From Patescibacteria group bacterium (GTDB lineage: Bacteria; Patescibacteriota; Gracilibacteria; Peribacterales; Peribacteraceae): 34,699 bases of DNA. Shown in pieces: positions 6,803 through 33,286 of this stretch. The translations under genes were made by a program, and so were the position numbers. The first letter of the stretch is position 1. Each line of letters begins with the position of its first letter. The notes under the pieces were generated by a model, which saw only the letters and a program-made list of their open reading frames with translations, was not told the origin of the DNA and did no database searches. The stretch is taken from assembly GCA_018818235.1 (NCBI GenBank), contig JAHISE010000067.1, forward strand, positions 1 to 34,699, given 5' to 3'.

Positions 6803-7498
6803 ATGGATAAACCTTCAAGCTTACATCTCGCAATCATCCCTGACGGAAATAGACGTTGGGCGAAGAATCGCAGCCTCCACCCCTGGAAAGGACACGAACA
6901 AGCAATAGAAAACTTCCGATCTATAACAGAGTGGTGCAGAAACGATCCGCGTGTGAACATTCTGACTGTCTGGTGCTTCTCTACAGAAAACTGGAAGCGT
7001 GATCCAAAGGAAATAGAGATGCTTATGAAGATGTTGGAGGATTATTTAAGAAAGGAGCAGGAAGGTTTTATCGAAAAGAAGACAAAGTCCCTTCATTCCG
7101 GAAGAAAAGATAGGATCCCCTCTTCTCTTGCGCAGTTAATTGAGGAAGTTGAAAAGAAAACTGCTGACCAGTCCGAATTTACTCTGCACTTGGCTGTTGA
7201 TTACGGTGGGAAGGATGAGATCATACGTGCAATCAATAAAATATCCGTAACGGAAGATTGCGATCTTCCGCTGCGATCAGAAAATGGTATTCGTGAGCAT
7301 CTCGACCATCCGGAATTGTCTGATATTGATTTGATCATCCGAACTTCCGGTGAACAAAGAACCAGCAACTTCTTCCTTTGGCAAACTGTTCACTCCGAAT
7401 GGGTTTTTAATAACAAGTTGTTCCCTGATTTTGAAGTTAGTGACCTAGAATCTGCAGTTGATGACTTCGCAAATCGTACACGTCGCTTTGGTTCATGA
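6803..7498 (+). CDS. uppS: Undecaprenyl diphosphate synthase (cis-prenyltransferase)
   Basis: Motifs HLAIIPDGNRRWA, FSTENWKR, IIRTSGEQRTSNF and RRFG. Confidence 0.96.
   Translation: MDKPSSLHLAIIPDGNRRWAKNRSLHPWKGHEQAIENFRSITEWCRNDPRVNILTVWCFSTENWKRDPKEIEMLMKMLEDYLRKEQEGFIEKKTKSLHSGRKDRIPSSLAQLIEEVEKKTADQSEFTLHLAVDYGGKDEIIRAINKISVTEDCDLPLRSENGIREHLDHPELSDIDLIIRTSGEQRTSNFFLWQTVHSEWVFNNKLFPDFEVSDLESAVDDFANRTRRFGS
7246..7275 (+). repeat. Intragenic REP-like palindrome (in uppS)
   Basis: CGTAACGGAAGAT-TGCG-ATCTTCCGCTGCG. Confidence 0.8.
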
Positions 7499-8442
7499 AA
7501 AACATAGGTTCAGCTCCGGGAAAAATAATTCTTACCGGTGAGTACGCCGTAGTTTTCGGATTCCGTGGTATCGCAATCCCCTCTCCTCTGAAAATGGAAG
7601 TTGAGTTTGAAGAAAACAGATCGATCGAAGGGATTGAAGTTGAGTGGGAAGGTATTAAAGGTGACGAAACAGCCTTCGCCCAGCCGTCGCTCTCCGAGCT
7701 ATGGCCGGCAGGCAAGGCTACGGCTGTCCAGGGTTGGAATTCTAATTTAATAGAGATACTAAATTCAATTCAGCAATTCAAAGGAAAGATTTTTAATGGA
7801 AAACTGACTATCAAAAACTCAATCCCACTCGGAAAAGGTATGGGATCTTCAACTTCACTCGTAATTGCTGTGGCCAGATGCATGCTTGGTGGTGAATGCC
7901 GATCCGAAGCACTTGCGATCGAGAATAAACTGTCACCAAACAACAGTGGAATCGATTTCAATGTGATTTGGGAAGGTTGTCCCATACTGTTTAAGAAAGA
8001 TGAAAAACATCAATTAATTGATATACCCAAAGACTTTCTGAGTGATGCAATATTAATTGATACCGGCACACCAAATGAGTCAACAAAGGAGTTGGTAGCA
8101 TGGGTAACCGACCGTCGTGGTCGTAGCGGAAGATCGTTATCTTCCGATAATGTTTATGAGGCATTGGAAATGATCGGAAATTGTACAGAGCGCCTCATTA
8201 ATAATGATGATTTTTCAAAGATTATTGCTGATAATTATCGCGCCCAACTCACCCTCGGCATCGTCCCTCCTCAGGTTCAGGAATTAATCGAAGAAATTGA
8301 ACAGGCAGGAGGAGCCGCAAAGGTTATGGGGGCGGGCGGGAGAACGGGTGGGGGTGGGATGGTGTTGGCTCTACACAAAAATCTGAAGAATATTGAAGAA
8401 ATAGCTGCACAATATCATCTACAATCACTCACACTTAACTAA
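7495..8442 (+). CDS. mvk: Mevalonate kinase (GHMP kinase)
   Basis: Motifs APGKIILTGEYAVV, IPLGKGMGSS, SGID and AKVMGAGG..GGG; ATGA overlap with uppS. Confidence 0.88.
   Translation: MKNIGSAPGKIILTGEYAVVFGFRGIAIPSPLKMEVEFEENRSIEGIEVEWEGIKGDETAFAQPSLSELWPAGKATAVQGWNSNLIEILNSIQQFKGKIFNGKLTIKNSIPLGKGMGSSTSLVIAVARCMLGGECRSEALAIENKLSPNNSGIDFNVIWEGCPILFKKDEKHQLIDIPKDFLSDAILIDTGTPNESTKELVAWVTDRRGRSGRSLSSDNVYEALEMIGNCTERLINNDDFSKIIADNYRAQLTLGIVPPQVQELIEEIEQAGGAAKVMGAGGRTGGGGMVLALHKNLKNIEEIAAQYHLQSLTLN
7669..7727. repeat. Two nested ~32-nt hairpin elements inserted in frame in mvk
   Basis: ACAGCCTTCGCC[CAGCCGTCGCTCTCCGAGCTATGGCCGGCAGGC]AAGGCTACGGCTGT. Confidence 0.85.
8122..8146 (+). repeat. Intragenic REP-like palindrome (in mvk)
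   Basis: CGTAGCGGAAGATCGTTATCTTCCG. Confidence 0.85.
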
Positions 8443-8444
8443 GT

Positions 8445-8485
8445 CATTTTCCACTTTCCACTTTCCACTTTCCATTTTCCATTCC
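8445..8485. repeat. Heptamer tandem repeat (TTTCCAY), about 5 units
   Basis: Fills the mvk-mvaD spacer. Confidence 0.9.
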
Positions 8486-8486
8486 C

Positions 8487-9512
8487 ATGACAACCGCCTC
8501 CTCCTCCCCCAATTCCGCATTCATTAAATACTGGGGCAACCGAAATAATCCCCTCAGGCTTCCTGTGGCAGATTCATTCTCTATGTCACTCGACGGTCCT
8601 ACCGTAGAAATAGATATAGAACACTCAGATGCTTTAAAAGTCATATCATTTAATCCTGATGGAACGCAGCTTGAGCTGGGCGAGAAACATGTGAACAGAT
8701 TTGGAAAGACTTTGGATATGACAAAGGAGTATTTAACAAAGTTGGGAGCACCAGATGCAATTCCTGCTTCCGTTTCCATCACCGTAAGATCTAATATCCC
8801 ACCTGCTGTGGGACTTGCCTCTTCCGCAGCAGTTTTTAGCTGCCTTGCAAAGGCAATACAGGGTTTGGTTGCTCCGGTGATTGAACTTACTAATGATCAG
8901 ACGAGTGTAATAGGTCGATTGGGATCCGGTTCTGCAGGAAGAAGTGTACATGGAGGCTTTGTTGCATTGGTTGCGGGTGAAGGTGAAGAGATCGACAGCT
9001 CTTATGGCAAACAATTCGCAGACCAGAACCATTGGACACTCCATGACATCATAGTTGTACCCACAATGCTGGAGAAAAAGGTCGGATCAACCGAAGGGCA
9101 TGCCACTGCACAAACCAGTCCCGGCTATAATGATCGAGTTGAAGCAATAATGAGCCGCAGACAACAGGAATGTATAGATGCAGTTCTTAAAAAGGACTTC
9201 GAAAAGCTTACCGCAGTGTGCGAAGAAGATGTTCTGGACATGCATCATGTGATGCAGACCTCCAATCCCCCACTTAACTACCTGACTGACGACACTCATA
9301 GGATCACAAACGGAATAATTGAGCTTAGAATCTCCGAACACCTTCCTGTGTTCTACACAATGGATGCCGGCCCTACAGTTCAGCTGATATGTACCGACGA
9401 ATCCGTTGATCGTGTTCGGGAATTTGCCTACGCACAAGAAGGATGCAAGGTTTTTGAGGCGAAGACGGGGGGTGGGGCGAGGATTGTTAGAGAGGTGGCA
9501 TTATCTGCTTGA
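8487..9512 (+). CDS. mvaD: Diphosphomevalonate (or phosphomevalonate) decarboxylase
   Basis: Motifs FIKYWG, GLASSAA, RLGSGSA.RS, KKVGSTEG and YTMDAGP. Confidence 0.92.
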   Translation: MTTASSSPNSAFIKYWGNRNNPLRLPVADSFSMSLDGPTVEIDIEHSDALKVISFNPDGTQLELGEKHVNRFGKTLDMTKEYLTKLGAPDAIPASVSITVRSNIPPAVGLASSAAVFSCLAKAIQGLVAPVIELTNDQTSVIGRLGSGSAGRSVHGGFVALVAGEGEEIDSSYGKQFADQNHWTLHDIIVVPTMLEKKVGSTEGHATAQTSPGYNDRVEAIMSRRQQECIDAVLKKDFEKLTAVCEEDVLDMHHVMQTSNPPLNYLTDDTHRITNGIIELRISEHLPVFYTMDAGPTVQLICTDESVDRVREFAYAQEGCKVFEAKTGGGARIVREVALSA

Positions 9513-9522
9513 TATTGCACCC

Positions 9523-9680
9523 TTGTCTGAACCATGATTAATAGGATTATCAGCCTACGCCTCTGGGCTACGGTTGACAGGAAGGATTACCTTGATTTCA
9601 CAATCAGAGCTTTTTTAAGCAAAAATCCACACTTAATGATCATGTAAATCCTTTAATCAAGAAAATCAAGGTTCAGACAA
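9523..9680. mobile_element. Non-coding TIR element with inverted 9-mer tandem arms, copy 1 (carries a hairpin element at 9551-9581)
   Basis: TTGTCTGAACC...GGTTCAGACAA ends; NNNGATTAN 9-mers; homologous to 12921-13020. Confidence 0.8.
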
Positions 9681-9681
9681 T

Positions 9682-9716
9682 CACCACTTTTCACTATTCA
9701 CTATTCACTTTTCACT
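9682..9716. repeat. Heptamer tandem repeat (TTCACTW)
   Basis: Read directly, just upstream of the HMG-CoA reductase start. Confidence 0.85.
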
Positions 9717-9730
9717 CCACAATAGTCTCA

Positions 9731-10987
9731 ATGGACCTCCGAAGCCTCCCTACATCATTAAACTCTTCCGATCGCTGTAACGAGCGTCGCAAAATCATCG
9801 AACGTGAGCTTGGAGCGGACCTTGGAGCACTGAAGATTGATCCAAATAAGCTCGGCAGTGCCGAAGAGAATAATTGCGAACAAATGTTCGGACATGTTCC
9901 GATTCCTGTAGGCCTGGCAGGCCCACTCAAAATTTATTTCAACGGTCGTAGCGGCGATTCGAAAATCGCCGATGAGAATGCCACAAATATTTTCCTCCCA
10001 CTCGCAACAACAGAAGCTGCACTCGTCGCAAGTGTTAATCGCGGGTGCAAAGCTCTCACTTTATCAGGTGGAGTTACAACCAGATCTATATATCACGGCA
10101 TGACCCGATCTCTCGCATTCCGGATTCCGGATTCCGGATTCCGAAACTTCATAGAAACAATTAACAAACTAAAACCTGAGTGGATGAAAATCGGCGAATC
10201 CACCAGCTCCCACCTCAAAATAATTAATTACTACATTGATGAATGTGATAACCATCTATTTGTAACAATCAACTGTGATACCGACGAGGCAATGGGTATG
10301 AACATGGTAACAATTGCCGCTCAGGCAATCGGAGAATGGATCGAGGCACATATTCCTGAGCTTGAATTTATAACAGTGGCCGGAAATGTGGACTCGGATA
10401 AAAAACCGAGCAAAAGAACTCATGATTTGGGAAGGGGTTACGAAGTTTTTGCTGAGGCTGAACTCTCTGAGGAAGTCATCAAGGACGTACTTCATACTAC
10501 CCCCTACTCACTACTCACTACTGCCCAAGCTAAACTTGAATCAGGCTCTAAAGTTGCAGAATCAATAGGTTCAAATCTTCAAGCTGCAAATATTATCGCT
10601 GCACTCTACCTTGCAACGGGTCAGGATGCTGCGCACGTTGTCGAGGGATCGATGGCGGATACAACAATTACAGACGTAGCGGAAGATCGTTATCTTCCGC
10701 TCCGCATATCGGTCCGTTGCCCCGCCATCCTCGTCGGAGTCCGCGGAGGTGGAACTCAACTACCTGCACAATCTCAATGCCTTCAACTTCTTACAAAACC
10801 AATTAACCAATTAACCAATCAACCAATTAACCTACACTTAGCTGAGATCATTGGAGCCGCCGTCCTAGCAGGAGAAATATCGTTATTGGCTGCTCAAGCA
10901 ACTCATACTTTGGCAAAGTCGCATAAATCACTTGCAAGAAATAGTAAAGAACTGGAAAGACCCCAGTTTTTTAAACCCAAATCCTGA
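9731..10987 (+). CDS. hmgA: HMG-CoA reductase, class I (archaeal/eukaryote type); C-terminus extended by an IS insertion
   Basis: Motifs PLATTEAALVASVNRG, DEAMGMNM, GN.DSDKK, ATGQDAAHV and LAGEISL. Confidence 0.95.
   Translation: MDLRSLPTSLNSSDRCNERRKIIERELGADLGALKIDPNKLGSAEENNCEQMFGHVPIPVGLAGPLKIYFNGRSGDSKIADENATNIFLPLATTEAALVASVNRGCKALTLSGGVTTRSIYHGMTRSLAFRIPDSGFRNFIETINKLKPEWMKIGESTSSHLKIINYYIDECDNHLFVTINCDTDEAMGMNMVTIAAQAIGEWIEAHIPELEFITVAGNVDSDKKPSKRTHDLGRGYEVFAEAELSEEVIKDVLHTTPYSLLTTAQAKLESGSKVAESIGSNLQAANIIAALYLATGQDAAHVVEGSMADTTITDVAEDRYLPLRISVRCPAILVGVRGGGTQLPAQSQCLQLLTKPINQLTNQPINLHLAEIIGAAVLAGEISLLAAQATHTLAKSHKSLARNSKELERPQFFKPKS
9947..9971 (+). repeat. Intragenic REP-like palindrome variant (in HMG-CoA reductase)
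   Basis: CGTAGCGGCGATT-CGAA-AATCGCCG, with compensatory stem changes relative to the other copies. Confidence 0.75.
10675..10704 (+). repeat. Intragenic REP-like palindrome (in HMG-CoA reductase)
   Basis: CGTAGCGGAAGATCGTTATCTTCCGCTCCG, encoding VAEDRYLPL. Confidence 0.88.
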
Positions 10988-12257
10988 GAATAGCTTAAAA
11001 CCATGCGGAAAAGGGGCATAGTGTATTTTGACATAGTCCAAATGTCTACTTAACCCATTTTTCGCTATGCAACAATACCTCCATGATGCTCTTAGAAACA
11101 ACCTTCGTCCTGTAATTAAGTATTGCACCAGGCCTCAGCAAAAAGCTGTAAGCGAGGTTGTTCGTGGTCTATTCACAGAAGCCACACCTGTCTTGAGGCA
11201 TGTTGCGCAAGACAAAACAAAAACAGTTAAAAAGCAGGCTGAAAAATACAGCTATCACTTGGGAAACATTGATGTAACAGATGAAGTTGATGCCCTTGCA
11301 TTGAGGAAAGTTAAATCTCAAGTGCGTAAGCACACAGTGATTGCCTATGATCTTTGTGATATCAACAAAGAGTTTTCAAAAAAGATTGAGAAGATGACAA
11401 ATGTATTTGATGGAAGCAGGAGAAAGATAGCACCGGGATTTTTTCTGCATGGCGTTGGTATCAATGGCATTCTCTTAAAGTTTCAAGTGCACGATAATGA
11501 GGTACACACACTCAGCCAAATTCGATCAAAGATCGTTGGAAACATTTCAAAAGAACTCAAAAACAAGGGTATCTGGGTTTTTGATCGTGGCAATGACAGC
11601 AAGACATGGTACCGTGAACTCTGTCAGGTTCACGAAGCTGATTTTATCGCAAGAGTAAAAGAAAATCGTTATGTTGTCTTAAAAGAAACTGGGGATTATT
11701 TGCTTGTGAAAGATTTGGAACCGGGCATGTATGAAGTCCACTTTATGAATTATCACAACAACAAAGTGCACACAGATATCACCTATACACTCATCATCAA
11801 TGAGCACTTGGAAGACAAAGAGCCCATCAGACTAATCAGCAACCTTGGCATTGATCAATTCACATCAGAAGAGTTTGTAACAATGTATCTGGAACGCTGG
11901 GGTATTGAGAATGTTTTCAAAAGAGCAAAGCAGAAGTTTTGTCTTGAAAAGATCAGAGTTCTGAGTTTTCGGAAGTTCAAGAACCTTGTGTCTCTCATTC
12001 AGCTTGCAACCATTATTGCTACTGTAACATTTGTTGCCATTCAGAAGTCCACACATGCAGTTATCGTTGCTGTTGTGAAACTTTACAAAAACTTCCTGTG
12101 GCATCGTTCACTTGAACAAAATCTCGACTCCTTCATTGCATTCATGCAGGCATCTTTGCCAAGACTTGTACATCGTATCAAACTTCCTTCTGACCAAATG
12201 AGCCTGTTTTCAAGGAAGTGTTTAAACAGAGTGGGGTAAAAACTGGGGTCTTTTCAG
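10952..12257 (+). mobile_element. IS4-family insertion sequence, 1306 bp
   Basis: 20-bp TIRs CTGGAAAGACCCCAGTTTTT / CTGAAAAGACCCCAGTTTTT; direct repeat TAAAGAA at 10945-10951 and 12258-12264. Confidence 0.93.
11067..12239 (+). CDS. DDE transposase (IS4 superfamily)
   Basis: Motifs IAYD and VFDRG, plus the Y-R-E-K signature YLERWGIENVFKRAK. Confidence 0.93.
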   Translation: MQQYLHDALRNNLRPVIKYCTRPQQKAVSEVVRGLFTEATPVLRHVAQDKTKTVKKQAEKYSYHLGNIDVTDEVDALALRKVKSQVRKHTVIAYDLCDINKEFSKKIEKMTNVFDGSRRKIAPGFFLHGVGINGILLKFQVHDNEVHTLSQIRSKIVGNISKELKNKGIWVFDRGNDSKTWYRELCQVHEADFIARVKENRYVVLKETGDYLLVKDLEPGMYEVHFMNYHNNKVHTDITYTLIINEHLEDKEPIRLISNLGIDQFTSEEFVTMYLERWGIENVFKRAKQKFCLEKIRVLSFRKFKNLVSLIQLATIIATVTFVAIQKSTHAVIVAVVKLYKNFLWHRSLEQNLDSFIAFMQASLPRLVHRIKLPSDQMSLFSRKCLNRVG

Positions 12258-12450
12258 TAAAGAATAATTGACTTATGCCCTGTTTTATTGCAAGATACTG
12301 CACTCATATCCTCTTTTGGATATGCGTTCATTCCCATCAAAGGACAACGGATAAATCTCCGGAATCAAAAACCGGAAGATGAAGATATCCCAATCTAGTT
12401 GATCAAGTAACCGTCACCCGTCACACGTTTCGCGAAAGAAGGAAGAACCA

Positions 12451-12828
12451 ATGAGAAAAGCTTTGCTGACCACATTGTCGTGGATTGTAGTCGTAGCACT
12501 CATCATGCTTGTTTGCCAATCGATCCGTCAACAGGATCGGAACACAAGTCAATTCCTGATGATGGATAAGTCAAACCGTGTTATTTCCGCCTCAAAAGAA
12601 AGGCACGAACAAAAAATCGCCCATATACTCGAGAGCCCACTAGACCCGGAATTGGACAAAGATACATGGAAGTATCTGAATTGGGAAAGGAAGGAATTGG
12701 ATCTTATGATCCAGAAACACAACAACGAAATCTCTTGTTATGGTTATGACAAAGAAACACCGGCGAGCGAGTACAAACCGATTCCCAAAATCCCGGCCAT
12801 TCAGTGGCCGGAAACTGCCCCACCGTGA
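12451..12828 (+). CDS. Hypothetical membrane-anchored protein
   Basis: N-terminal hydrophobic helix, purine-rich RBS (AAGGAAG) and its own terminator. Confidence 0.7.
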   Translation: MRKALLTTLSWIVVVALIMLVCQSIRQQDRNTSQFLMMDKSNRVISASKERHEQKIAHILESPLDPELDKDTWKYLNWERKELDLMIQKHNNEISCYGYDKETPASEYKPIPKIPAIQWPETAPP

Positions 12829-12869
12829 CCCAACCAACCGTTGTCCAATTCATGTTAATGGGAACCGAT

Positions 12870-12899
12870 CCCGACGTCCACAGCGACGTCGGGGTTTTT
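12870..12899 (+). terminator. Intrinsic terminator
   Basis: CCCGACGTC-CACAGC-GACGTCGGG followed by GTTTTT. Confidence 0.8.
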
Positions 12900-12920
12900 G
12901 ACATATTTGTCTGAACCCAC

Positions 12921-13020
12921 TTGTCTGAACCATGATTAAAAGGATTATTTGATTACCTTGATTGCCTTAATCAGTATAATCAAGTTAATCCTTTAATCGT
13001 GTAAATCAAGGTTCAGACAA
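12921..13020. mobile_element. Non-coding TIR element with inverted 9-mer arms, copy 2
   Basis: TTGTCTGAACC...GGTTCAGACAA; extra left TIR at 12907-12917; right end abuts the ATG at 13021. Confidence 0.8.
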
Positions 13021-14058
13021 ATGCACTCCTCAATAATCTCCTTCGGCCAATACATCCCCTCCAAACGAATCAAAACTGAGGAGATTGCACGGCAACATTC
13101 AAAGGATCCTGCTCCTTATATAAAAGGATTGGGAGTAACCGAGAAATCAGTCCCCAACCAAGGCGAAGATACTTTTACGATGGCGGTTGAGGCGGGTAGG
13201 CAAGCATTAAACTCCGTAGCGGAAGATCGATATCTTCCGCCCCTGCGATCCTCGCAAATTTCCGCTGTCTTCGTCGGCTCCGAAAGTCACCCGTACGCAG
13301 TTAAACCCACAAGCGGAATGGTAGCCTCCGCACTTGAGTGTCATCCCTTCTGTCATTGTGCTGACTTGGAGTTTGCATGCAAAGCCGGAACCGCAGCAAT
13401 GCAAATTGTTGATAGCATGGTGAGGTCCGGTCAGATTGAATATGGAATGGCTATAGGATCGGATACTGCTCAAGGCAAACCCGGTGATGCACTCGAGTAC
13501 ACAGCTGCCGCAGGAGCAGGTGCGATCATACTTGGACCGGAAAATTCCAAGAATGCCATCTGCAGAATAGAAAAGACGCTATCTTTTACATCAGACACTC
13601 CTGACTTTTGGAGAAACTCAGAGAAAAAGTACCCCGAACATGCCGGGCGCTTTACGGGTGAGCCTTCTTATTTCCGTCATACCGAAGAAGCACTAAAAGG
13701 AATACTCGAAATTACTAAAATGGAGGTTGGCGACTTTGCTCACGCAGTATTCCACATGCCCAATGCAAAGTTCCCTTCCAAGATTGCAAATAAATTCGGA
13801 TTTACCAAAGAGCAAATGGAACATGGCTTCATTGTTCCCAAAATTGGGAACACATACAGTGCATGTTCACTGCTTGGGCTGATATCAGTTCTGCAAAAAG
13901 CAAAGAAAGATGAAAAGATACTTCTTGTTAGCTACGGATCGGGTGCGGGGTCGGATGCGTTTGTGTTTACGATGCTGAAGGATGGAGTTGAACTACCCTC
14001 AGATGAAAGAGCAACTGAATATGTGGATTATAATGAGTATGTAAGGTGTACTTCTTAA
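13021..14058 (+). CDS. HMG-CoA synthase, archaeal type
   Basis: 345 aa; motifs GSESHPYAVKP, FACKAGT (catalytic Cys), FHMPNAKFP, IGNTYSA and SYGSGAGSD. Confidence 0.95.
   Translation: MHSSIISFGQYIPSKRIKTEEIARQHSKDPAPYIKGLGVTEKSVPNQGEDTFTMAVEAGRQALNSVAEDRYLPPLRSSQISAVFVGSESHPYAVKPTSGMVASALECHPFCHCADLEFACKAGTAAMQIVDSMVRSGQIEYGMAIGSDTAQGKPGDALEYTAAAGAGAIILGPENSKNAICRIEKTLSFTSDTPDFWRNSEKKYPEHAGRFTGEPSYFRHTEEALKGILEITKMEVGDFAHAVFHMPNAKFPSKIANKFGFTKEQMEHGFIVPKIGNTYSACSLLGLISVLQKAKKDEKILLVSYGSGAGSDAFVFTMLKDGVELPSDERATEYVDYNEYVRCTS
13215..13240 (+). repeat. Intragenic REP-like palindrome (in HMG-CoA synthase)
   Basis: CGTAGCGGAAGATCGATATCTTCCGC, encoding VAEDRYLP. Confidence 0.88.
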
Positions 14059-14092
14059 GAAGAATCTTCAGATTTTTGGCATCACTGTGATC

Positions 14093-14354
14093 CGACCTCA
14101 CCCCCTGTCCCCCTCTCCTGCCACGCAAATGACTTTGAATAAGTCTGATGTATATATTCAATTCTGGATACACACAGGAGAGGGGGGAGCCCATATCATA
14201 GAAATGAATATCATTGCTACATGATAATGAAAAGAATCTAAAAACCTACTTAAACTTAGGCTCCCCCATCTCCTCTGAATCTGATTATATATTAGCAATA
14301 GATAACATAGGGGTTCACTGACGTGGGAGGAGAGGGGGACAGGGGGTGAGGTCG
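14093..14354. mobile_element. CCCCTCTCC double-hairpin MITE-like element (262 bp)
   Basis: TIR CGACCTCACCCCCTGTCCCCCTCTCC; inverted homologue of 32113-32507. Confidence 0.85.
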
Positions 14355-14436
14355 AAAAGAAAATAGAAAGAACAAATAAAGACTTTGAGTGCATGCATGA
14401 TCCTCTAATTTGTAGTAGGATATCCCAGAGCTACCC

Positions 14437-15552
14437 ATGAATCAGGACATCTACATCACCGGAACCGGCCAAACACCCTTTGGAGAACATTGGGACTTAA
14501 GTCTAAAAGATTTAATGGAGCAAGCCATATCAAAAGCTATTGAATCATCAGAATTAACCGCACTTGATATCGATTTTATCATTGTCTCCAACATGCTCGG
14601 CGAAAGAACCAATGACCAAGCACATTTGGGAGCAATGGCATCCGCAATGCTTCCTCATAGACCTCCTGCCATAAGAACCGAGGCCGCATGTGCATCGGGA
14701 TCGGTCGCAATTCATACGGCGTTGAGTTTACTGGAGAGCGGACGTGCCGAAACAGTCTTGGTAATAGGAGTCGAGAAGATGACAGATGTTCCAACAGAAG
14801 AAATTTCCGCAGCACTTATGGGAGCCGCCGATGCGGAGAAAGATATTCCTTCAGGGCTCACATTCCCCGGAATTTTCGGACTGATCGCTAACAGATACAT
14901 GTACGAATATAGTCTGACCAGAGATAAATTGAATATAGTAAGTGCCCGACATCACGAAAATGCGGTTTATAATCCCAATGCACAGTTCCAAGTTAAGATT
15001 CCTGCTGAAAAAGTCTCTCAGAGCGCAACAGTTGCGGACCCACTTTGTCTTTTAGACTGTTCTCCAATCAGTGACGGAGCTGCTGCTGTCATTCTTTCCA
15101 CTAAACATGAGTCACCAATCAGAATTGTGGCTTCACAAATGAGCACTGATACTTTAAGTATTACAGATCGACCCTCATTAACATCGTTCCCGGCAACAAA
15201 AGATGCTGTTGAACGTGCACTGGAAGAAGCTCAGATTTCTCGCGAAGATATTTCCCATTTGGAGATACATGATTGCTTTTCCATAGCTGCCATAATCAAT
15301 TTGGAAGACCTAGGGTATGCAATTCCGGGGCAAGGAATTCGGCTATATGAAGCGGATAACTCGATGCCTTCAATTAATAAGTCCGGTGGACTTAAAGCAT
15401 GCGGTCATCCTGTAGGAGCAACAGGTGTAAAGCAGATCAGCGAACTTACTGCGCAACTTAAATCTTCAAATGAGCGCTATGCTCTTGCTCACAACTTTGG
15501 AGGAGCCGGTGCAACATGCTGCATTCACATTTTAGAAAATTCAAATGCCTGA
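14437..15552 (+). CDS. Acetoacetyl-CoA thiolase, archaeal/SCP2 type
   Basis: Motifs EAACASG, HDCF, GHPVGATG and HNFGG. Confidence 0.93.
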   Translation: MNQDIYITGTGQTPFGEHWDLSLKDLMEQAISKAIESSELTALDIDFIIVSNMLGERTNDQAHLGAMASAMLPHRPPAIRTEAACASGSVAIHTALSLLESGRAETVLVIGVEKMTDVPTEEISAALMGAADAEKDIPSGLTFPGIFGLIANRYMYEYSLTRDKLNIVSARHHENAVYNPNAQFQVKIPAEKVSQSATVADPLCLLDCSPISDGAAAVILSTKHESPIRIVASQMSTDTLSITDRPSLTSFPATKDAVERALEEAQISREDISHLEIHDCFSIAAIINLEDLGYAIPGQGIRLYEADNSMPSINKSGGLKACGHPVGATGVKQISELTAQLKSSNERYALAHNFGGAGATCCIHILENSNA

Positions 15553-16507
15553 TTCTCCTCAAGTAATTCACCGAGCCAATAAAGAACAGTATAAAAAAAT
15601 GCAGAGTGGTGTCATCATCTCTCATACAACAATAATGAATCCGCCTAAGGGTTTCGGAAGCAAGCCGAAGACTATTGGGTTAATTGAATTGAATGATGGT
15701 AGCCGAGTGCTTGGTAATATTATTACGCGCGTTTCGGAATCCGACTCAACATTCTGTCCGGATTCCGGATTCCGGATTCCGATCATTGGGCAAAGCGTTA
15801 CTCCCCACCTAAGACTAAATAGAATCAATCCCCAAGGCCTGCGCATCTACGAAGTCCAATACCAAGTAACTCAAGAACAACCCGTTAAACAAAAACAAGA
15901 ATTCCACGGTTACATAATTGCCCTTACCGGACCTTCGGGAGTCGGGAAAACAACCGTAAGTAAAATTCTTACTACCAAAATAGGAGACTATGCTGTCAAA
16001 GTTCCGATACTTACAACCAGAAAATCTTCCAATCAGGATGATGGTGAATATGAATACATCTCAGGAAGAGAATTTGATGTACTCAAGAAACAAAACAAGC
16101 TCGCATCCTTCACTCGCATCCCATCTTCTACAGAATCGCGATGGTACGGATATAGAAAGAGTGATATCGAAGTAATTCTTAAGCAAAAGAAAATCCCGGT
16201 TGTAATTACAGAGATGGGACTACTGCAAGAACTTGCAAATAACTACGGTCGCCGATCAATTCTTTCATTCGGACTTCTCCCCCCGGGAAAGAGCAAGAGA
16301 CTAATGCTCAGTTGCCTGCTCCATCGTCTAAGAAAGCGTGGTCGTGACAGCGAAGAGGCTATCGAAGAGCGCTTAAAGAACGCCGAACGAGATCTGCAGT
16401 ACTTTGACGATATGGGACATCTGTTTGATGATTTGATCGTGAATGAGGATTTGGATACGGTTATTTCTATGCTTAAGGGGAAAGTATTGGCAATCGCGAA
16501 GGGGTAA
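15545..16507 (+). CDS. DUF35-type OB-fold domain fused to a guanylate-kinase-like P-loop domain
   Basis: N-terminal SHTTI..PPKGF...IGLIELNDGSRV (DUF35 OB-fold). C-terminal GPSGVGKTT, LTTR, WYG and RLRKRGRDSEEAIEERL. Overlaps the thiolase stop. Confidence 0.85.
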   Translation: MPDSPQVIHRANKEQYKKMQSGVIISHTTIMNPPKGFGSKPKTIGLIELNDGSRVLGNIITRVSESDSTFCPDSGFRIPIIGQSVTPHLRLNRINPQGLRIYEVQYQVTQEQPVKQKQEFHGYIIALTGPSGVGKTTVSKILTTKIGDYAVKVPILTTRKSSNQDDGEYEYISGREFDVLKKQNKLASFTRIPSSTESRWYGYRKSDIEVILKQKKIPVVITEMGLLQELANNYGRRSILSFGLLPPGKSKRLMLSCLLHRLRKRGRDSEEAIEERLKNAERDLQYFDDMGHLFDDLIVNEDLDTVISMLKGKVLAIAKG

Positions 16508-17850: not shown

Positions 17851-17851
17851 A

Positions 17852-17968
17852 GGCAGTTGGCAGTTGGCATATTGGCAGTTGGCTATCGGCGGCTGTTGAA
17901 CATGGTTTATTGGCCATCATTTGCGACCGCAAATAGCCAATAAGCCAACCTGCCAAAAGCCAATTGCT
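17852..17968. repeat. Empty inverted tandem-repeat shell (TTGGCAG / GCCAA)
   Basis: Left arm 17852-17890, right arm 17934-17968. Confidence 0.85.
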
Positions 17969-18012
17969 ATTCAATGCAACCTCTTGACTCATGCTGTATA
18001 CTTCGCATCTCC

Positions 18013-20541: not shown

Positions 20542-20553
20542 AAAGAAGAATCT

Positions 20554-22032: not shown

Positions 22033-22051
22033 ATACAGATAAATCCAATAC

Positions 22052-22124
22052 TTACTACTCACTACCAACTACAAACTCGATATTACTAATAACATATGAT
22101 TAGTGAGTAGTTTGTAGTGAGTAG
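22052..22124. repeat. Empty inverted heptamer shell (CTACTCA / TGAGTAG)
   Basis: Left arm 22052-22077, right arm 22101-22124. Confidence 0.85.
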
Positions 22125-22758: not shown

Positions 22759-22774
22759 AACAACAATACATATC

Positions 22775-23566: not shown

Positions 23567-23666
23567 TTTGCTCGTTTTCTGGTTTACTCGTTTGCTCGTT
23601 TGTTCAAAAATTTAAAGGTTATTAGCCCATTCTAATATAACGAGAAACGAGCTAACGATTAAACAA
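23567..23666. repeat. Empty inverted octamer shell (CTCGTTTG / AAACGAG)
   Basis: Left arm 23567-23605, right arm 23638-23666. Confidence 0.85.
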
Positions 23667-24626
23667 TTAACCTAACCCAACCGCCTTCCTCACCCTCTCC
23701 ATCGTACCCCCCGCGATCTCCCCCGCCCTCTCCCTCCCCGAGGCCAAAACCTCCTCCACATCTTTTGTGGTCAGCTTCTCCCTTGTTTCCCTCATCGGCT
23801 TCATATAATCCATATAATCTTCAAACAACCTCTTCTTTGCATCACCATAAGAAATTCCGGACTTATATTCATCCGCCAATTTTTCCGCTACCTTTTTATC
23901 CAGGAACAACTTATTAATAATATATATTGTGGATTTCTCCGGATCCTTCGGATCGTTCTGACCCGCTGAGTCTGTAACTATTCCCATAATGATTTTCTTA
24001 ATTTTTTTCTCATCTCCGAATAGTGGAATTGTATTCCCATAACTCTTACTCATTTTTTGCCCATCCACACCCGGAACAACCGCAACTTCTTCTCTTATAA
24101 CAGGTTCTGGAATCGTAAGAGCATCTTTTCCAAAAATAGTATTAAATTTCTGAGCAATATCACGAGCCATTTCCACATGTTGCTTTTGATCCTTTCCAAC
24201 AGGCACATGCGTTGCATCATATAATAGGATATCTGCAGCCATTAAAACCGGATAAGCAAAAAGCCCGACCGAAGGAATAATCCCCTTTTGAACTTTATCT
24301 TTATAGCTAACTGCACGTTCCAAAAGTCCCATAGGTGTTATGCAGCTTAGTATCCACATAAGTTCGGTGTGCTCCGGAATCTGAGACTGATCAAATATAA
24401 TCGCCTTCTCCGGATCAAATCCACATGCAAGATAATCCAGAACAATATCTTCACGAGCTTTATTAAGTACACTTGCATCCTGAATTGTTGTAAGCGCATG
24501 AAGATCGGCAACAAAGAATAAGCTTTGGTCGGATTTTTCCGTGAATTCCAAATTAGGCTTTATTGATCCGAAATAATTTCCTATATGTAATTGGCCGGAG
24601 GGTTGGATACCCGAAAGTACTCGCAT
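23667..24626 (-). CDS. trpS: Tryptophan--tRNA ligase
   Basis: Motifs SGIQPSG.LHIGNY, YPVLMAADIL, VPVGKDQ and KMSKS. Confidence 0.97.
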   Translation of the reverse strand: MRVLSGIQPSGQLHIGNYFGSIKPNLEFTEKSDQSLFFVADLHALTTIQDASVLNKAREDIVLDYLACGFDPEKAIIFDQSQIPEHTELMWILSCITPMGLLERAVSYKDKVQKGIIPSVGLFAYPVLMAADILLYDATHVPVGKDQKQHVEMARDIAQKFNTIFGKDALTIPEPVIREEVAVVPGVDGQKMSKSYGNTIPLFGDEKKIKKIIMGIVTDSAGQNDPKDPEKSTIYIINKLFLDKKVAEKLADEYKSGISYGDAKKRLFEDYMDYMKPMRETREKLTTKDVEEVLASGRERAGEIAGGTMERVRKAVGLG

Positions 24627-26435: not shown

Positions 26436-26463
26436 GATGTGAGAGTATCATAAATAATATAAA

Positions 26464-26626
26464 AAATCCCAAATCCCAAAACACAAATCACAAAGAAATC
26501 CCAAATCCCAAAACACAAATCACAAAGAAATCCCAAATCCCAAAACACAAATCATAAAGAAATCCCAAATCCCAAAACACAAATCACAAAGAAATCCCAA
26601 ATCCCAAAACACAAATCCCAAATGCC
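26464..26626. repeat. Heptamer tandem arm (AAATCCC/AAAACAC/AAATCAC) in 32-bp higher-order units
   Basis: Unit AAATCCC AAATCCC AAAACAC AAATCAC AAAG, four copies plus a partial fifth. Confidence 0.95.
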
Positions 26627-26628
26627 AT

Positions 26629-26985: not shown

Positions 26986-27043
26986 AAGGTGAACCAGTAT
27001 ACACCATTATTGTGAATATCAAGTATTTTCTATTAATAACAAT

Positions 27044-27146
27044 CTTGGGATTTGGGATTTGTATTTTGGGATTTCGTTGTGTTTTGGGATTTGTGTTTTG
27101 GGATTTCGTTGTGTTTTGTGATTTGTTTTTTGAGATTTGGGATTTC
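27044..27146. repeat. Inverse heptamer arm (GGGATTT/GTGTTTT)
   Basis: Reverse complement of the 26464 arm, with the same 4x7+4 register. Confidence 0.95.
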
Positions 27147-27256
27147 TTAAATGGGTCCCTGCATTTTGGCATTGATCCGTGATTTGTATTCTTACCTACA
27201 AAAACCTCACCTATTCCATTGCCCTACCCCCAAATTTCCATAAAATACCTGCGTCC

Positions 27257-29690: not shown

Positions 29691-29767
29691 TAACAATCGA
29701 CACGGTCCTGCGGGACCTTTCGACAGTCAACTATCAACACAGTAATATTTATGCTACACAGAATCAA

Positions 29768-29872
29768 AATGTCGAATGTCGAATGTCGAATGTCGAATGT
29801 CGAATGTCGAATGTCGAATGTCGAATGTCGAATGTCGAATGTCGAATGTCGAATGTCGAATGTCGAATGTCG
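29768..29872. repeat. Perfect heptamer microsatellite (AATGTCG)x15
   Basis: 105 bp, read directly; degenerate inverse arm at about 29695-29740. Confidence 0.97.
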
Positions 29873-29874
29873 AT

Positions 29875-32112: not shown

Positions 32113-32507
32113 CGACCTCACCCCCTGGCCCCCTCTCCTCCCACATAAGTGAGCATCATAGTTACTTGTTGTATACTCCTTCGCCTAAATAATTCCGGTT
32201 CTTGAGGACTCATTAATTATTAACAAATCTATTTCTAATGGCTATGGAGTACGAGATTGCATAATAAAAGCACAGTGAATTTTTCGGAATTATTAACTAA
32301 AAGCAGTATATATATACTTTAAAACATAGAGGAAAGGGGAACTCCGCAAATGAATGTTTTTTAATTACATTTGCAATTCAATGAAATTAAATTTATTCCT
32401 TTAATACGGGCTCCCCCCTCTCCTGTGAGTATCCAAAAATCTCAAACAGCATAAAATTTACTCGAAGCCCTTGTTGGGGCAGGAGAGGGGGCCAGGGGGT
32501 GAGGTCG
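32113..32507. mobile_element. CCCCTCTCC double-hairpin element carrying a nested MITE
   Basis: TIR CGACCTCACCCCCTGGCCCCCTCTCC; inverted homologue of 14093-14354. Confidence 0.88.
32172..32310. mobile_element. 139-bp TA-bounded MITE, copy 2
   Basis: Near-identical to 25474-25612. Confidence 0.92.
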
Positions 32508-32555
32508 ATTGAAGAAGACTAGCCAATAAGCCAATAAGCCAATATGCTAACTCCC

Positions 32556-33131
32556 ATGCACCCCTCAGAATCAAAACAACAACTCAGGGAATCCATAATC
32601 GAACGCCTTGCCCACATGTCAGAAAAAGATCGCGCAGACGAAAGTAGATCCATATGCAGAAGACTTAAAGAGAATATCCCCGAAGGATCCGGTGTTTGTG
32701 TTTATTCCGCATTAAAAAAGACTGAGCCTGACCTTACAATGCTTATAGAAAAGCTATTAAAGAGAGGAGACAAAGTATATTTTCCATTTTTTGAAGGTGA
32801 CCACTTTATATTCAAACGTGCTATGAATCTAGATGAACTTAAACCGGGCAAATTAAAAATACTTGAGCCTCCGGCAGACTCTGAACTTGCAGATCCGAAG
32901 GAAATCGACTTTGTTCTTGTGCCGGGTCGCGCTTTTGACCGAAATGGAAACCGCTTGGGCAGAGGAAACGGAGGTTATGACTATTGGATAGCAGATCAGA
33001 GGATGGCCAATCCCAAAACTGCAATGTGGGGCGTTGCTTTTGAGTGTCAGATTGTAAATGAAGTGCCGGTGGAAGAGCATGATCGGAGAGTGGACGGGGT
33101 GGTTACTGCTAGAACGTTGTTAAGTTGCTAA
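32556..33131 (+). CDS. 5-formyltetrahydrofolate cyclo-ligase
   Basis: VLVPGRAFDRNGNRLGRGNGGYD and VPVEEHD motifs; preceded by (AGCCAATA)x3. Confidence 0.95.
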   Translation: MHPSESKQQLRESIIERLAHMSEKDRADESRSICRRLKENIPEGSGVCVYSALKKTEPDLTMLIEKLLKRGDKVYFPFFEGDHFIFKRAMNLDELKPGKLKILEPPADSELADPKEIDFVLVPGRAFDRNGNRLGRGNGGYDYWIADQRMANPKTAMWGVAFECQIVNEVPVEEHDRRVDGVVTARTLLSC

Positions 33132-33186
33132 GTTGCTACATTGGACAGCATGCAACATAAACGTAGCAACGTAGCAACGTATCAAC
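33114..33186. repeat. Empty inverted octamer shell (GTTGCTAA / TAGCAACG)
   Basis: Left arm overlaps the upstream stop codon. Confidence 0.85.
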
Positions 33187-33286
33187 AAATAACATAACAA
33201 AACAATAATTTATTTGCCACACAATCAAATCAGTATTAATCTGGACACCTATGATCACCCCGACAATTTCTTCACCCAAAATTGCC

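What the first reader, a model, noticed from the sequence alone, without database searches (positions are those of the whole stretch)
7150..33200. Base-composition skew flips at repeat elements, including mid-gene
Seen: the top strand is G/T-rich for roughly 50-100 bp left of elements and C/A-rich to the right, largely at synonymous positions and regardless of gene orientation. Examples: mvk end GGG GCG GGC GGG AGA ACG GGT GGG GGT GGG versus mvaD start ACC GCC TCC TCC TCC CCC, and the C-rich run at 23671-23760. The same flip surrounds intragenic elements: GATGGCGGTTGAGGCGGGTAGG then CCCCTGCGATCCTC at 13215; GAGGGATCGATGGCGG then GCCCCGCCATCCTC at 10675; also 7669, 8122 and 15757. Element-free junctions (7495, 15545, 20541) lack it. 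Inference: repeated cutting at the elements followed by resection would expose 3' single strands to C>T and A>G damage, giving this polarity. That would be a footprint of an element-targeted nuclease or recombination system. Judged by eye, not computed.
Basis: partly seen in the sequence, partly recalled or inferred. Interest (0 to 1): 0.8.

Follow-up and report, generated by a model that had tools for sequence, protein, structure and literature searches.

The report
Strand-composition flip around heptamer repeat elements
In this small uncultured bacterium the DNA for about 100 bases on either side of its short repeat elements is G-rich on one side and C-rich on the other, even inside conserved genes, which looks like the lasting footprint of a DNA process acting at these elements that has not been described before.

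Summary
Around 380 repeat-element clusters, the top strand carries 9.3 more G than C in the left 90 nt and 9.4 more C than G in the right 90 nt. Both sides point as expected in 64% of clusters against 18% of random positions (p=2e-104).

- **Where the flip sits:** mostly at synonymous sites. G at four-fold sites rises from 0.17 to 0.41 before elements, and C from 0.155 to 0.35 after them.
- **Where it is absent:** tight operon junctions.
- **Inside genes:** it surrounds 51 in-frame heptamer elements in housekeeping genes.
- **Orthologous sites:** element-poor relatives lack it there.
- **Across genomes:** its strength tracks repeat density in 12 genomes (rho 0.84).

So it does not simply follow start and stop codons.

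The cause is unsettled. The polarity matches bidirectional 5'-3' resection at a break (passages of PMC6786661). Against that reading:
- A>G dominates over C>T.
- Non-coding flanks show only half the skew of coding flanks.
- No nuclease could be tied to the elements.
- No polymorphism was available for a test.

Selection on transcripts remains a live rival. In passing: 44 of 58 element sites are occupied in a congeneric genome too, but by unrelated repeat sequences.

The parts
8318..8360 (+). G-rich run near the 3' end of the mevalonate kinase gene (7495-8442)
   Evidence: Read directly. The protein matches GHMP_kinases_C. It is partly made of glycine codons.
8443..8486 (.). TTTCCAC x4.9 tandem repeat filling the mvk|mvaD spacer, with a flip across it (S=17)
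   Evidence: TRF; S.
8487..8550 (+). C-rich start of the diphosphomevalonate decarboxylase gene
   Evidence: The right 90 nt have G-C = -18.
9513..9730 (.). Spacer mvaD|HMG-CoA reductase with REP-like and inverted-repeat elements and a CACTATT repeat. The G-rich mvaD end lies to its left and the C-rich reductase start to its right (S=30).
7669..7716 (+). REP-like element read in frame inside mvk, with a weak flip (S=10)
   Evidence: Repeat family D12; S.
8122..8150 (+). 28-nt palindrome (GGAAGAT..ATCTTCC family) in frame inside mvk; no flip (S=-2)
10117..10143 (+). ATTCCGG x3.9 repeat in a variable loop of HMG-CoA reductase (S=7)
10496..10522 (+). ACTACTC repeat inside HMG-CoA reductase that does not change the protein length relative to relatives (S=17)
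10675..10703 (+). 28-nt palindrome in frame in HMG-CoA reductase, about 4 codons longer than in most relatives, with a flip (S=15, D=11)
10797..10832 (+). AACCAATT x4.5 repeat in a reductase loop. S=-12, because its left flank is the C-rich right flank of the element at 10675.
13215..13243 (+). 28-nt palindrome in frame in the HMG-CoA synthase-like gene, with a flip (S=20)
15757..15781 (+). TCCGGAT x3.6 repeat in the linker between an OB-fold (DUF35-type) part and a guanylate-kinase-like part of one ORF, with a flip (S=22)
17851..17973 (.). Spacer holding a GGCAGTT arm and an AGCCAATA arm, an imperfect hairpin of heptamer/octamer repeats (S=34)
22033..22124 (.). Spacer between convergent genes holding an inverted pair of heptamer repeats (S=37)
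23567..23666 (.). Spacer with TTTGCTCG repeats; the strongest flip in the window (S=53)
23667..23760 (-). It is the G-rich 3' end of a class I (Trp/Tyr-type) tRNA synthetase gene on the minus strand.
   Evidence: PF00579. The right 90 nt have G-C = -42.
26436..26628 (.). AAATCCC-type array (period 7 within a period of 32), inverted partner of the array at 27045-27148 (S=15)
26986..27178 (.). TTGGGAT-type array, inverted partner of 26464-26627; the two bracket a 118-aa gene (S=26)
29691..29874 (.). Spacer with AATGTCG x15 (S=32)
33132..33250 (.). Spacer with GTTGCTAA / AACGTAGC repeats (S=36)
7495..7498 (+). Overlapping uppS|mvk junction without an element; no flip (S=6)
15545..15552 (+). Overlapping thiolase|next-gene junction without an element; no flip (S=4)
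20542..20553 (+). 12-nt junction without an element; no flip (S=-7)

Best explanation
The flip is a real, lineage-specific signature about 100 nt wide on each side. It is centred on short elements built from tandem heptamers, which often sit as inverted pairs that can form hairpins. On either strand, the sequence 5' of an element is enriched in G and somewhat in T, and the sequence 3' of it in C and somewhat in A.

My best reading is a strand-polar mutation or repair footprint. The DNA at these elements would be repeatedly nicked or broken. The 5'-ending strands would then be removed and resynthesised outward over about 100 nt, by resection or by patch synthesis. Changes arising on the surviving 3'-ending strand would be fixed, and changes on the removed strand erased. 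Over evolutionary time this would drive A>G and C>T on the strand 5' of the element. It would be visible mainly where the protein tolerates it, at synonymous sites, gene termini and loops.

**Shown:** the signature, its link to the elements, its polarity and its phyletic distribution.

**Inferred:** the cutting, the resection or resynthesis, and the enzyme.
For: 1. **Antisymmetry and symmetry.** The signature is antisymmetric and of equal size on both sides (+9.3 and +9.4 per 90 nt). It does not depend on gene orientation.
2. **Complementary shifts at four-fold sites.**
   - Mid-gene: A .347, C .155, G .167, T .331.
   - Before elements: A .21, C .073, G .406, T .311.
   - After elements: A .296, C .35, G .112, T .243.
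   - One DNA-level process seen from both strands would give this.
3. **Not tied to start or stop codons.**
   - It is absent at tight junctions.
   - Around 51 in-frame heptamer elements, third-position GC skew is +0.23 to +0.52 upstream and about -0.22 downstream. It returns to baseline beyond about 150 nt.
   - These elements lie in real housekeeping genes. In at least 8 of the 20 proteins scanned the element is inside a single Pfam domain; these include Dus, RluA-type, KsgA, Mur ligase, an ATP synthase subunit and a GMP synthase GATase domain. In most of the rest it lies between the Pfam-matched domains.
4. **Not a property of the gene position.** At 10 such sites, orthologs in five element-poor genomes carry no element. 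Their mean D is 1.7 over 37 site-by-genome cases, against 11.9 in G000. G000's sites were picked for high D, so some regression to the mean is expected.
5. **Covariation across genomes.** In 12 genomes the amplitude tracks heptamer-repeat density (rho .84). A member of the same family without repeats (G008) has amplitude 0.00.
6. **Translation start mode does not explain it.** No Shine-Dalgarno-like enrichment upstream of starts appears in 7 of the 8 genomes tested, whether or not they show the flip; G040, which has no flip, shows a slight enrichment.
7. **Polarity.** It equals that of resection-derived strand-switch clusters in yeast, with mutated C on the left and mutated G on the right of the top strand (passages of PMC6786661).
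8. **Rewriting in place.** 44 of 58 element sites are also occupied in G001, against 6.5% of random sites, but only 3 of 44 share a 10-mer.
9. **No specific pairing.** Native left and right flanks pair no better than mismatched ones (-25.3 against -26.9 kcal/mol). The flip is therefore not an extended stem.
Against: - Non-coding flanks show about half the skew of coding flanks (0.15 against 0.27). On average the skew drops at the stop codon. A neutral footprint should be at least as strong in non-coding DNA, unless spacers turn over quickly or consist of other elements.
- The main shift is A>G. C>T, the classical single-strand damage, is weaker. Purine content at four-fold sites also shifts (.51 to .62), which needs transversions or selection.
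- No enzyme is identified. SbcD was not found. The two RAYT-like genes are flanked by other repeats.
- Generic hairpins show no flip (283 cases, S=0.2). Other dispersed repeats show little (271 cases, S=4.0). Secondary structure alone is therefore not the cause.
- In G018, spacers without a detected repeat show the same skew as spacers with one.
- Within HMG-CoA reductase, several repeat-bearing loops in several genomes show no flip.
- No polymorphism or close relative was available to measure mutation direction.
Confidence: 0.4

Rival explanations
1. **Selection on transcripts.** RNA read outward from a spacer or element is kept A/C-rich and G-poor, so it cannot fold on itself. This would help ribosomes start without a Shine-Dalgarno sequence. 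RNA running into an element or gene end is kept G/U-rich. The repeats would be part of leader or terminator modules that the cell uses.
For: - The C-rich zone at gene starts spans about -45 to +45 around the start codon, which is the size of a ribosome footprint.
- No Shine-Dalgarno enrichment upstream of starts.
- Coding flanks are more skewed than non-coding ones, and the G-rich zone ends at the stop codon on average.
- G gains and C gains come from several bases, not only by transitions.
- Tight junctions, where translational coupling could replace fresh initiation, lack the signal.
Against: - The flip also surrounds in-frame elements in the middle of housekeeping genes, where no start or stop is needed.
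- Relatives with the same lack of Shine-Dalgarno motifs but without repeats (G008, G020, G026) lack the flip.
- The composition after elements is close to the complement of that before them. Two unrelated selective demands would produce this only by coincidence.
- Rho, which could have given outward C-rich RNA a role, was not found.
- Canonical G-quadruplex motifs are rare, in 4 of 512 gene-end windows.
- No RNA data exist: 0 of the 11 runs that hold the stretch are on record as RNA.
Confidence: 0.3
2. **Target choice.** The elements insert, or repeats arise, preferentially where a G-rich stretch already meets a C-rich stretch. The flip would then come first and the element second.
For: - The same orthologous sites are occupied in G000 and G001 by unrelated repeat families (44 of 58).
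- Sites occupied in both genomes have high D in both (7.8 and 7.2). The 14 sites occupied in only one genome have low D in both (1.3 and 1.1).
Against: - Element-poor relatives show no flip at gene ends (G008 0.00, G040 0.01).
- They show none at 10 orthologous intragenic sites either (mean D 1.7). The supposed targets therefore do not exist where elements are absent.
- This reading leaves unexplained what would create hundreds of flips at synonymous sites in the first place.
- Random intragenic positions rarely have D>=10 (about 5%).
Confidence: 0.1
3. **Strand-biased mismatch correction during recombination that starts at the elements.** Heteroduplex next to the element would be repaired towards G/C on one defined strand, for example by Vsr-like (DUF559) nicking. 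This differs from damage on exposed single strands.
For: - GC content at third positions rises on both sides (0.35 to 0.44 or 0.47).
- The main changes are A:T to G:C.
- DUF559 hits are numerous, 7 in G000, and their number tracks the amplitude across 12 genomes (rho .75).
Against: - No evidence of recombination tracts was obtained.
- The DUF559 count is confounded with the general load of mobile elements.
- Kin are not independent.
- It shares the non-coding-flank weakness of the footprint reading.
Confidence: 0.12
4. **Artefact** of gene calling, assembly or repeat detection.
For: - The gene caller was home-made.
- Start codons are taken as the longest ORF.
Against: - The element-centred test uses no gene calls.
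- The signal recurs in independent genomes (G001, G018, G011).
- The window sequence is held nearly unchanged by 11 runs from 7 studies.
Confidence: 0.01

Closest known systems
Strand-switch ('single-switch') mutation clusters from bidirectional 5'-3' resection at double-strand breaks in yeast (PMC6786661; passages read)
   Same: The polarity is identical: on the top strand, C is hit to the left of the break and G to the right. Both are centred on a point.
   Different: - The yeast clusters are single experimental events, spanning kilobases, driven by an added cytosine deaminase or alkylating agent.
- Here the pattern is a fixed, evolutionary, roughly 100-nt signature at hundreds of natural sites.
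- Here A>G is the main change, and no break has been shown.
Heptameric simple repeats of Xanthomonas (GGGAATC) and Nostoc (GGGGAYT) (PMC4692102; passages read); cyanobacterial STRR heptamers and small dispersed repeats (recalled, not read)
   Same: - Tandem heptamers, mostly in spacers close to gene ends.
- Sites conserved between relatives, with length and sequence variation.
- Some units look alike (here AATCCGG and AAATCCC).
   Different: - The passages I read do not mention a flanking composition flip.
- Those repeats are discussed as quadruplex formers, whereas quadruplex motifs are rare here.
- Here many unit families coexist, form inverted pairs and sit in frame inside conserved genes.
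REP / REPIN elements with RAYT transposases (PMC3116915, search listing only; details recalled)
   Same: - Short palindromic dispersed repeats, often as inverted doublets.
- Two RAYT-like genes with HUH and Tyr motifs are present, flanked by their own hairpins.
- The four genomes without such genes have the weakest flips.
   Different: - The hairpins flanking the RAYT-like genes are GC-rich and unrelated to the heptamer repeats.
- Non-tandem dispersed repeats show only a weak flip (S=4.0).
- G039 has 9 hits but a weak flip.
Rickettsia palindromic elements inserted in frame in protein genes (recalled, not read)
   Same: Selfish palindromic repeats tolerated in frame in loops of conserved proteins.
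   Different: - Those elements are about 100-150 nt long. Here they are 20-60 nt and built of tandem heptamers.
- I know of no report of a flanking skew.
Replication- and transcription-associated GC/keto skew (established knowledge)
   Same: The same kind of base shift, G+T enrichment on one strand, usually ascribed to single-strand exposure.
   Different: - Those skews follow replication direction or gene strand over kilobases to megabases.
- This one flips within about 200 nt at elements, whatever the gene orientation. It reaches a third-position GC skew of +0.71.

Membership tests
Resection-type strand-switch mutation footprint | On the top strand, C is depleted to the left and G to the right of the centre | tested here: met
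   Left G-C +9.3 and right C-G +9.4 per 90 nt at 380 clusters. Polarity as stated in PMC6786661.
Resection-type strand-switch mutation footprint | The change is dominated by damage typical of single strands (C>T) | tested here: not met
   A>G is the larger shift (d ln G/A 0.8-1.7 against d ln T/C 0.15-0.95). T at four-fold sites does not rise.
Resection-type strand-switch mutation footprint | A break or nick at the centre, made by an identifiable nuclease | not testable with these tools
   SbcD was not found in G000. RAYT-like and DUF559 genes are present but not tied to the heptamer repeats. No DNA-end data exist.
Resection-type strand-switch mutation footprint | Neutral (non-coding) DNA shows at least as strong a signal as constrained DNA | tested here: not met
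   Folded GC skew is 0.15 in non-coding flanks (n=293) and 0.27 in coding flanks (n=354).
Translation start/stop related codon bias | The signal depends only on distance to start and stop codons | tested here: not met
   Absent at 108 tight same-strand junctions. Present around 51 intragenic elements. Absent in relatives without repeats.
Replication or transcription strand skew | The sign follows replication direction or gene strand | tested here: not met
   The flip has the same sign for both gene orientations. The local background skew only shifts the balance of the two sides (L 11.9 / R 7.2 against L 6.8 / R 12.5).
Extended palindrome (the flanks are stem arms) | Native left and right flanks are specifically complementary | tested here: not met
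   Duplex energy is -25.3 for native pairs against -26.9 for mismatched pairs (62 intragenic elements), and -22.8 against -23.6 (464 others).
REP/REPIN-RAYT system | A RAYT gene flanked by copies of the repeat it mobilises | tested here: not met
   For the heptamer repeats the feature is not met. The two RAYT-like ORFs (HUH and YxHxNP motifs) are flanked by GC-rich hairpins of other sequence.
Quadruplex-forming heptamer repeats (Xanthomonas/Nostoc type) | G-tracts able to form a quadruplex | tested here: not met
   Canonical motifs occur in 4 of 512 gene-end windows, no more than in synonymous shuffles (3.7). Most units, such as GTCACTG, CGGAATC and GTCGAAT, lack G-tracts.

The most novel reading that the evidence does not exclude
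The heptamer-repeat elements of these candidate-phyla-radiation bacteria would be sites of a so far unknown, recurrent DNA transaction. The DNA would be cut at the element. The repeat would be rewritten in place from a small, lineage-specific set of heptamer templates. This would explain why the same protein loops and spacers stay occupied in two species while the repeat sequence is replaced. It would also explain why inverted pairs of the same heptamer arise, as expected if both 3' ends of a break are extended with the same unit. The 100-nt flip would be the resection or resynthesis footprint of this process.
Probability: 0.2. Interest if true: 0.9.

Novelty: new variant of a known kind. Interest (0 to 1): 0.8.

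Why it matters
- **Strength of the signal.** Local strand skews are read as records of which DNA strand is exposed or copied. This skew flips within 200 nt at hundreds of small repeats. It overrides codon choice in core genes and even changes the amino-acid make-up of protein ends. That points to a strong and frequent process at these elements in a group of bacteria that cannot be grown.
- **If it is mutational.** It would be a natural, fixed counterpart of the resection-linked mutation clusters known from yeast and cancer genomes. It would also mark the elements as hotspots of breakage or nicking.
- **If it is selective.** It would reveal an unrecognised rule of gene-boundary design in organisms without Shine-Dalgarno-led initiation and, as far as searched, without Rho.
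- **Practical use.** The flip is a simple computable marker for finding such elements and for dating their residence.
- **Annotation warning.** Codon-usage-based gene finding and selection tests will be biased near them.

Tried and rejected
1. **Flanks as extended hairpin arms.** Rejected: native flanks pair no better than mismatched ones.
2. **G-quadruplex selection.** Rejected: 4 of 512 windows against 3.7 expected.
3. **Rho-loading sites on outward C-rich RNA.** Rho (TIGR00767) was not found in G000, which is 95% complete. I did not pursue this further.
4. **SbcCD cutting of hairpins.** SbcD (TIGR00619) was not found.
5. **Any hairpin causes the flip.** Rejected: 283 generic hairpins with stems of 9 bp or more, away from repeats, give S=0.2.
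6. **Intragenic cases are mis-called gene fusions.** Rejected for the 20 genes with the highest D. All are well-known single-chain enzymes or proteins with Pfam matches on both sides of the element.
7. **Polarising substitutions with close relatives.** Not possible. The best genome and metagenome relatives have about 70% protein identity.
8. **Polymorphism spectrum from public runs.** Eleven runs hold the stretch, but laying four of them gave only about 24 variant places. Most lie in repeats and probably come from other copies, and all runs are kept as contigs. No test was possible.
9. **Per-locus test on 50 metagenome contigs.** It gave a noisy correlation only (rho .42). The 12-genome comparison replaced it.
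10. **HMG-CoA reductase alone across 19 relatives.** No consistent flip at its five variable loops. The sites lie so close together that their flanks overlap.
11. **Sequence context of the shifts.** No sharp signature.
12. **Technical failures.** A literature search with a mis-formed term failed.
13. **Literature.** Full-text search for 'Peribacteria' plus 'repeats' returned 9 papers. Passages of PMC4736985 mention no local skew or heptamer repeats. I ran no search aimed specifically at local skew around repeats in other bacteria, so 'not described' rests on these searches and on recall.

Full report
**What the window is**

The window is contig C121 of a 1.58-Mb, 164-contig genome, 41% G+C. 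Earlier notes of this scan place the genome in the Peribacteria of the candidate phyla radiation. I took that label from the notes and did not test it.

The window carries a mevalonate-pathway cluster:
- undecaprenyl-diphosphate synthase (6803-7498);
- a GHMP-type kinase (7495-8442);
- diphosphomevalonate decarboxylase (8487-9512);
- HMG-CoA reductase (9731-10987);
- a DDE transposase (11067-12239);
- an HMG-CoA-synthase-like gene (13021-14058);
- a thiolase (14437-15552);
- an OB-fold plus guanylate-kinase-like fusion (15545-16507).

Spacers, and several loops inside these genes, hold short repeats. These include tandem heptamers and octamers such as TTTCCAC, CACTATT, CCGGATT, ACTACTC, AACCAATT, GGCAGTT and AATGTCG. 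There is also a 28-nt palindrome family with 19 copies in the genome, 4 of them in the window.

**Is the flip real?**

Yes.
- **Method.** I called genes with a simple codon-score ORF picker (1304 genes, 81% of the genome). I defined elements as TRF repeats of period 5-9, at least 2.9 copies and score at least 40. That gave 608 elements, 127 of them inside called genes.
- **Element-centred test, independent of gene calls.** At 380 element clusters the left 90 nt hold 9.3 more G than C and the right 90 nt 9.4 more C than G. Both sides have the expected sign in 64% of clusters, against 18% of 3000 random positions (p=2e-104).
- **Gene-anchored view.** Coding-strand GC skew is about +0.12 inside genes. 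It falls to -0.25 in the first 45 nt and rises to +0.39 in the last 60 nt (618 genes).
- **Codon positions.** At gene ends the shift is mostly at third positions, +0.07 mid-gene against +0.55 in the last 60 nt. At gene starts positions 1 and 2 shift as well (503 genes).
- **Four-fold sites.** Composition moves from A .347 C .155 G .167 T .331 (mid-gene) to A .21 C .073 G .406 T .311 in the last 60 nt before a repeat-bearing spacer. In the first 60 nt after one it is A .296 C .35 G .112 T .243, close to the complement.
- **Protein ends.** They shift too: V, E, R, W, K and G are enriched at ends, and L, I, S, T and P at starts.

**Is it tied to elements or to start and stop codons?**

The evidence ties it to the elements.
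- **Junction type.** The last-60 third-position skew is +0.71 when a repeat-bearing spacer follows (n=299) and +0.11 at same-strand junctions of 25 nt or less (n=108). It is +0.40 to +0.54 for spacers without a detected repeat (n=213). Starts behave in mirror image (-0.37, -0.06, -0.13 to -0.18).
- **Distance.** The coding skew falls as the distance to the first repeat grows. Short non-coding spacers carry it as well (0.16-0.39).
- **Intragenic elements.** 62 repeats lying at least 250 nt from both gene ends have a mean D of 6.6, against 0.0 for 1390 control positions (p=2e-11). Eleven of the 62 are coding low-complexity runs (poly-E, poly-G and the like), and these have D near 0.
- **Heptamer-type intragenic elements.** For the other 51, third-position skew is +0.23 to +0.52 from -120 to 0 and about -0.22 from 0 to +90. 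It is back at baseline beyond about 150 nt.
- **These genes are real.** Pfam scans of the 20 genes with the highest D show the element inside a single domain envelope in at least 8. Examples are Dus, PseudoU_synth_2, Citrate_synth_N, Mur_ligase_M, RrnaAD, ATP-synt_ab, GATase and Glycos_transf_1. In most of the others the element lies between the Pfam-matched domains of well-known single-chain enzymes, including GT4, MurG, LepA, CarB, transketolase and PilB; in DnaE it lies after the last matched domain.

**The window's own examples**

Random S in the window has sd 12.9 and a 95th percentile of 21.
- Spacers give S = 30, 34, 37, 53, 26, 32 and 36, with some weaker ones (17, 15, 10, 6).
- The cited intragenic cases give 20 (13215), 15 (10675), 22 (15757), 10 (7669) and -2 (8122).
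- Element-free junctions give 6, 4, -7 and 1.

The C-rich run at 23671-23760 is the G-rich 3' end of a minus-strand tRNA synthetase gene.

**Comparative evidence**

*Twelve genomes of the class* (100 kb to 1.2 Mb each). Amplitude is the gene-end minus gene-start third-position skew at real spacers.

| Genome | Amplitude | Note |
|---|---|---|
| G000 | 0.87 | |
| G018 | 0.73 | |
| G001 | 0.66 | same genus as G000 |
| G011 | 0.49 | |
| G016 | 0.40 | |
| G035 | 0.38 | |
| G017 | 0.37 | |
| G039 | 0.24 | |
| G020 | 0.17 | |
| G026 | 0.14 | |
| G040 | 0.01 | |
| G008 | 0.00 | same family as G000, no repeats |

- Amplitude tracks the density of heptamer-type repeats (Spearman 0.84, p=7e-4). Kin are not independent.
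- Shine-Dalgarno-like motifs are not enriched upstream of starts in 7 of the 8 genomes tested; G040, which has no flip, shows a slight enrichment (0.19 against 0.06). The mode of translation start therefore does not separate genomes with the flip from those without it.

*Orthologous sites in element-poor genomes.* At 10 element sites of G000, orthologs in five element-poor genomes hold no element. Their mean D is 1.7 (37 cases), against 11.9 in G000. The G000 sites were chosen for high D, so part of the contrast is regression to the mean.

*G000 against G001* (395 reciprocal best hits, median 67% identity).
- 44 of 58 intragenic element sites are occupied in both genomes, against 6.5% for random sites in the same genes.
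- Only 3 of those 44 pairs share a 10-mer. 12 have exactly the same length.
- The common unit families also differ between the two genomes.
- Sites occupied in both have D of 7.8 and 7.2. The 14 sites occupied in one genome only have D of 1.3 and 1.1.

**What kind of element shows the flip?**

| Element type | n | S |
|---|---|---|
| Tandem-heptamer type | 439 | 18.6 |
| 28-nt palindrome family | 19 | 9.7 +/- 3.2 |
| Other dispersed repeats with no tandem repeat nearby | 271 | 4.0 |
| Generic hairpins, stem of 9 bp or more | 283 | 0.2 |

The GTCACTN family is an inverted pair, [GTCACTN]n-loop-[GACCAGY]n. Its left flanks have a GC skew of 0.4-0.6 over 110 nt (37 hits).

**Mechanism**

- **Specific pairing of the flanks.** Excluded.
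- **Quadruplex selection.** Excluded.
- **Rho and SbcD.** Neither was found.
- **Polarity.** It equals that of mutation clusters made by bidirectional 5'-3' resection in yeast (passages of PMC6786661).
- **Kind of shift.** The keto-type shift (A>G, C>T on the strand 5' of the element) is the kind usually ascribed to single-strand exposure. This is established knowledge.
- **Candidate nucleases.** Genes exist for two RAYT-like HUH proteins and seven DUF559 hits. The four genomes without RAYT-like hits have the four weakest flips. However, the RAYT-like genes are flanked by GC-rich hairpins, not by heptamers.
- **Against a neutral footprint.** A>G outweighs C>T and purine content shifts. Non-coding flanks carry about half the skew of coding flanks. 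On average the G-rich zone stops at the stop codon.
- **The selective rival.** It would keep outward RNA A/C-rich and inward RNA G/U-rich. It explains these last points but not the intragenic flips or the complement symmetry.

I therefore give the footprint reading 0.4, selection on transcripts 0.3, biased mismatch correction 0.12 and target choice 0.1.

**Known analogues and novelty**

- Heptamer repeats near gene ends are known in Xanthomonas and Nostoc (passages of PMC4692102).
- REP/RAYT systems and in-frame palindromic elements of Rickettsia are known (recalled).
- The Peribacteria genome paper mentions neither heptamer repeats nor local skew in the passages I read (PMC4736985).
- I found no description of a composition flip centred on such elements.

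**Limits**

- The gene caller is home-made.
- Start codons are taken as the longest ORF.
- Genomes other than G000 and G001 were only sampled.
- Cross-genome statistics ignore phylogeny.
- No expression, polymorphism or DNA-end data were available.

Noticed in passing
G000 vs G001 orthologs genome-wide; in the window e.g. 10117-10143: The same protein loops hold tandem repeats in two congeneric genomes (44 of 58 sites, against 6.5% of random sites). The repeat sequences are unrelated: only 3 of 44 pairs share a 10-mer, and 12 of 44 have identical length. The sites persist while their sequence is replaced.
   Followed up: partly
whole genome G000 and G001: The common heptamer unit families are lineage-specific. 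In G000 they are AATCCGG (38), AAATCCC (38), ACCAGTG (35) and AATCGAC (22). In G001 they are AAAAATG (20), AACTTGG (15) and AAGAATT (11).
   Followed up: partly
window 9731-10987 and loci L002-L020: HMG-CoA reductase has five hypervariable loops in which different relatives carry different small repeats or hairpins. One repeat (10496-10522) replaces sequence without changing the protein length.
   Followed up: partly
locus L002 (G005:C24): In one congener the HMG-CoA reductase frame runs on without a stop into the HMG-CoA-synthase-like gene, giving a 742-aa ORF.
   Followed up: no
window 15545-16507: One ORF joins an OB-fold (ChsH2/DUF35-type) part to a guanylate-kinase-like P-loop part, with a CCGGATT repeat in the linker. 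It could be a fused partner of the thiolase/synthase pair plus a kinase of the pathway.
   Followed up: no
window 11067-12239 and 11385/13035: A DDE transposase gene sits between the reductase and synthase genes. A contig of run X11 joins 11385 (minus) to 13035 (plus), an inverted arrangement of this segment in another sample.
   Followed up: no
window 26464-26627 and 27045-27148: Two roughly 100-nt arrays of AAATCCC-type repeats, 83% complementary, bracket a 118-aa gene (26629-26985, minus strand).
   Followed up: no
G000 contigs C90:9724-10161 and C106:5134-5646: Two small RAYT-like genes (HUH motif, YxHxNP tyrosine motif), each flanked on both sides by its own GC-rich hairpin repeats.
   Followed up: partly
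whole genome G000 and seven relatives: No Shine-Dalgarno-like enrichment upstream of called starts (0.08 against a background of 0.14 in G000). The region upstream of starts is C-rich and G-poor. Rho and SbcD were not found in G000.
   Followed up: partly
window 4500-24499: Eleven public runs from seven studies (groundwater, biofilm) hold this stretch almost letter for letter. The population appears nearly clonal across samples.
   Followed up: partly
window 9946-9975 and loci L003, L006: A second small palindrome (GCGGCGATTCGAAAATCGCCG type) sits in frame in reductase loop 1 and is shared with two congeners. A third congener, L002, has another hairpin at the same place.
   Followed up: no
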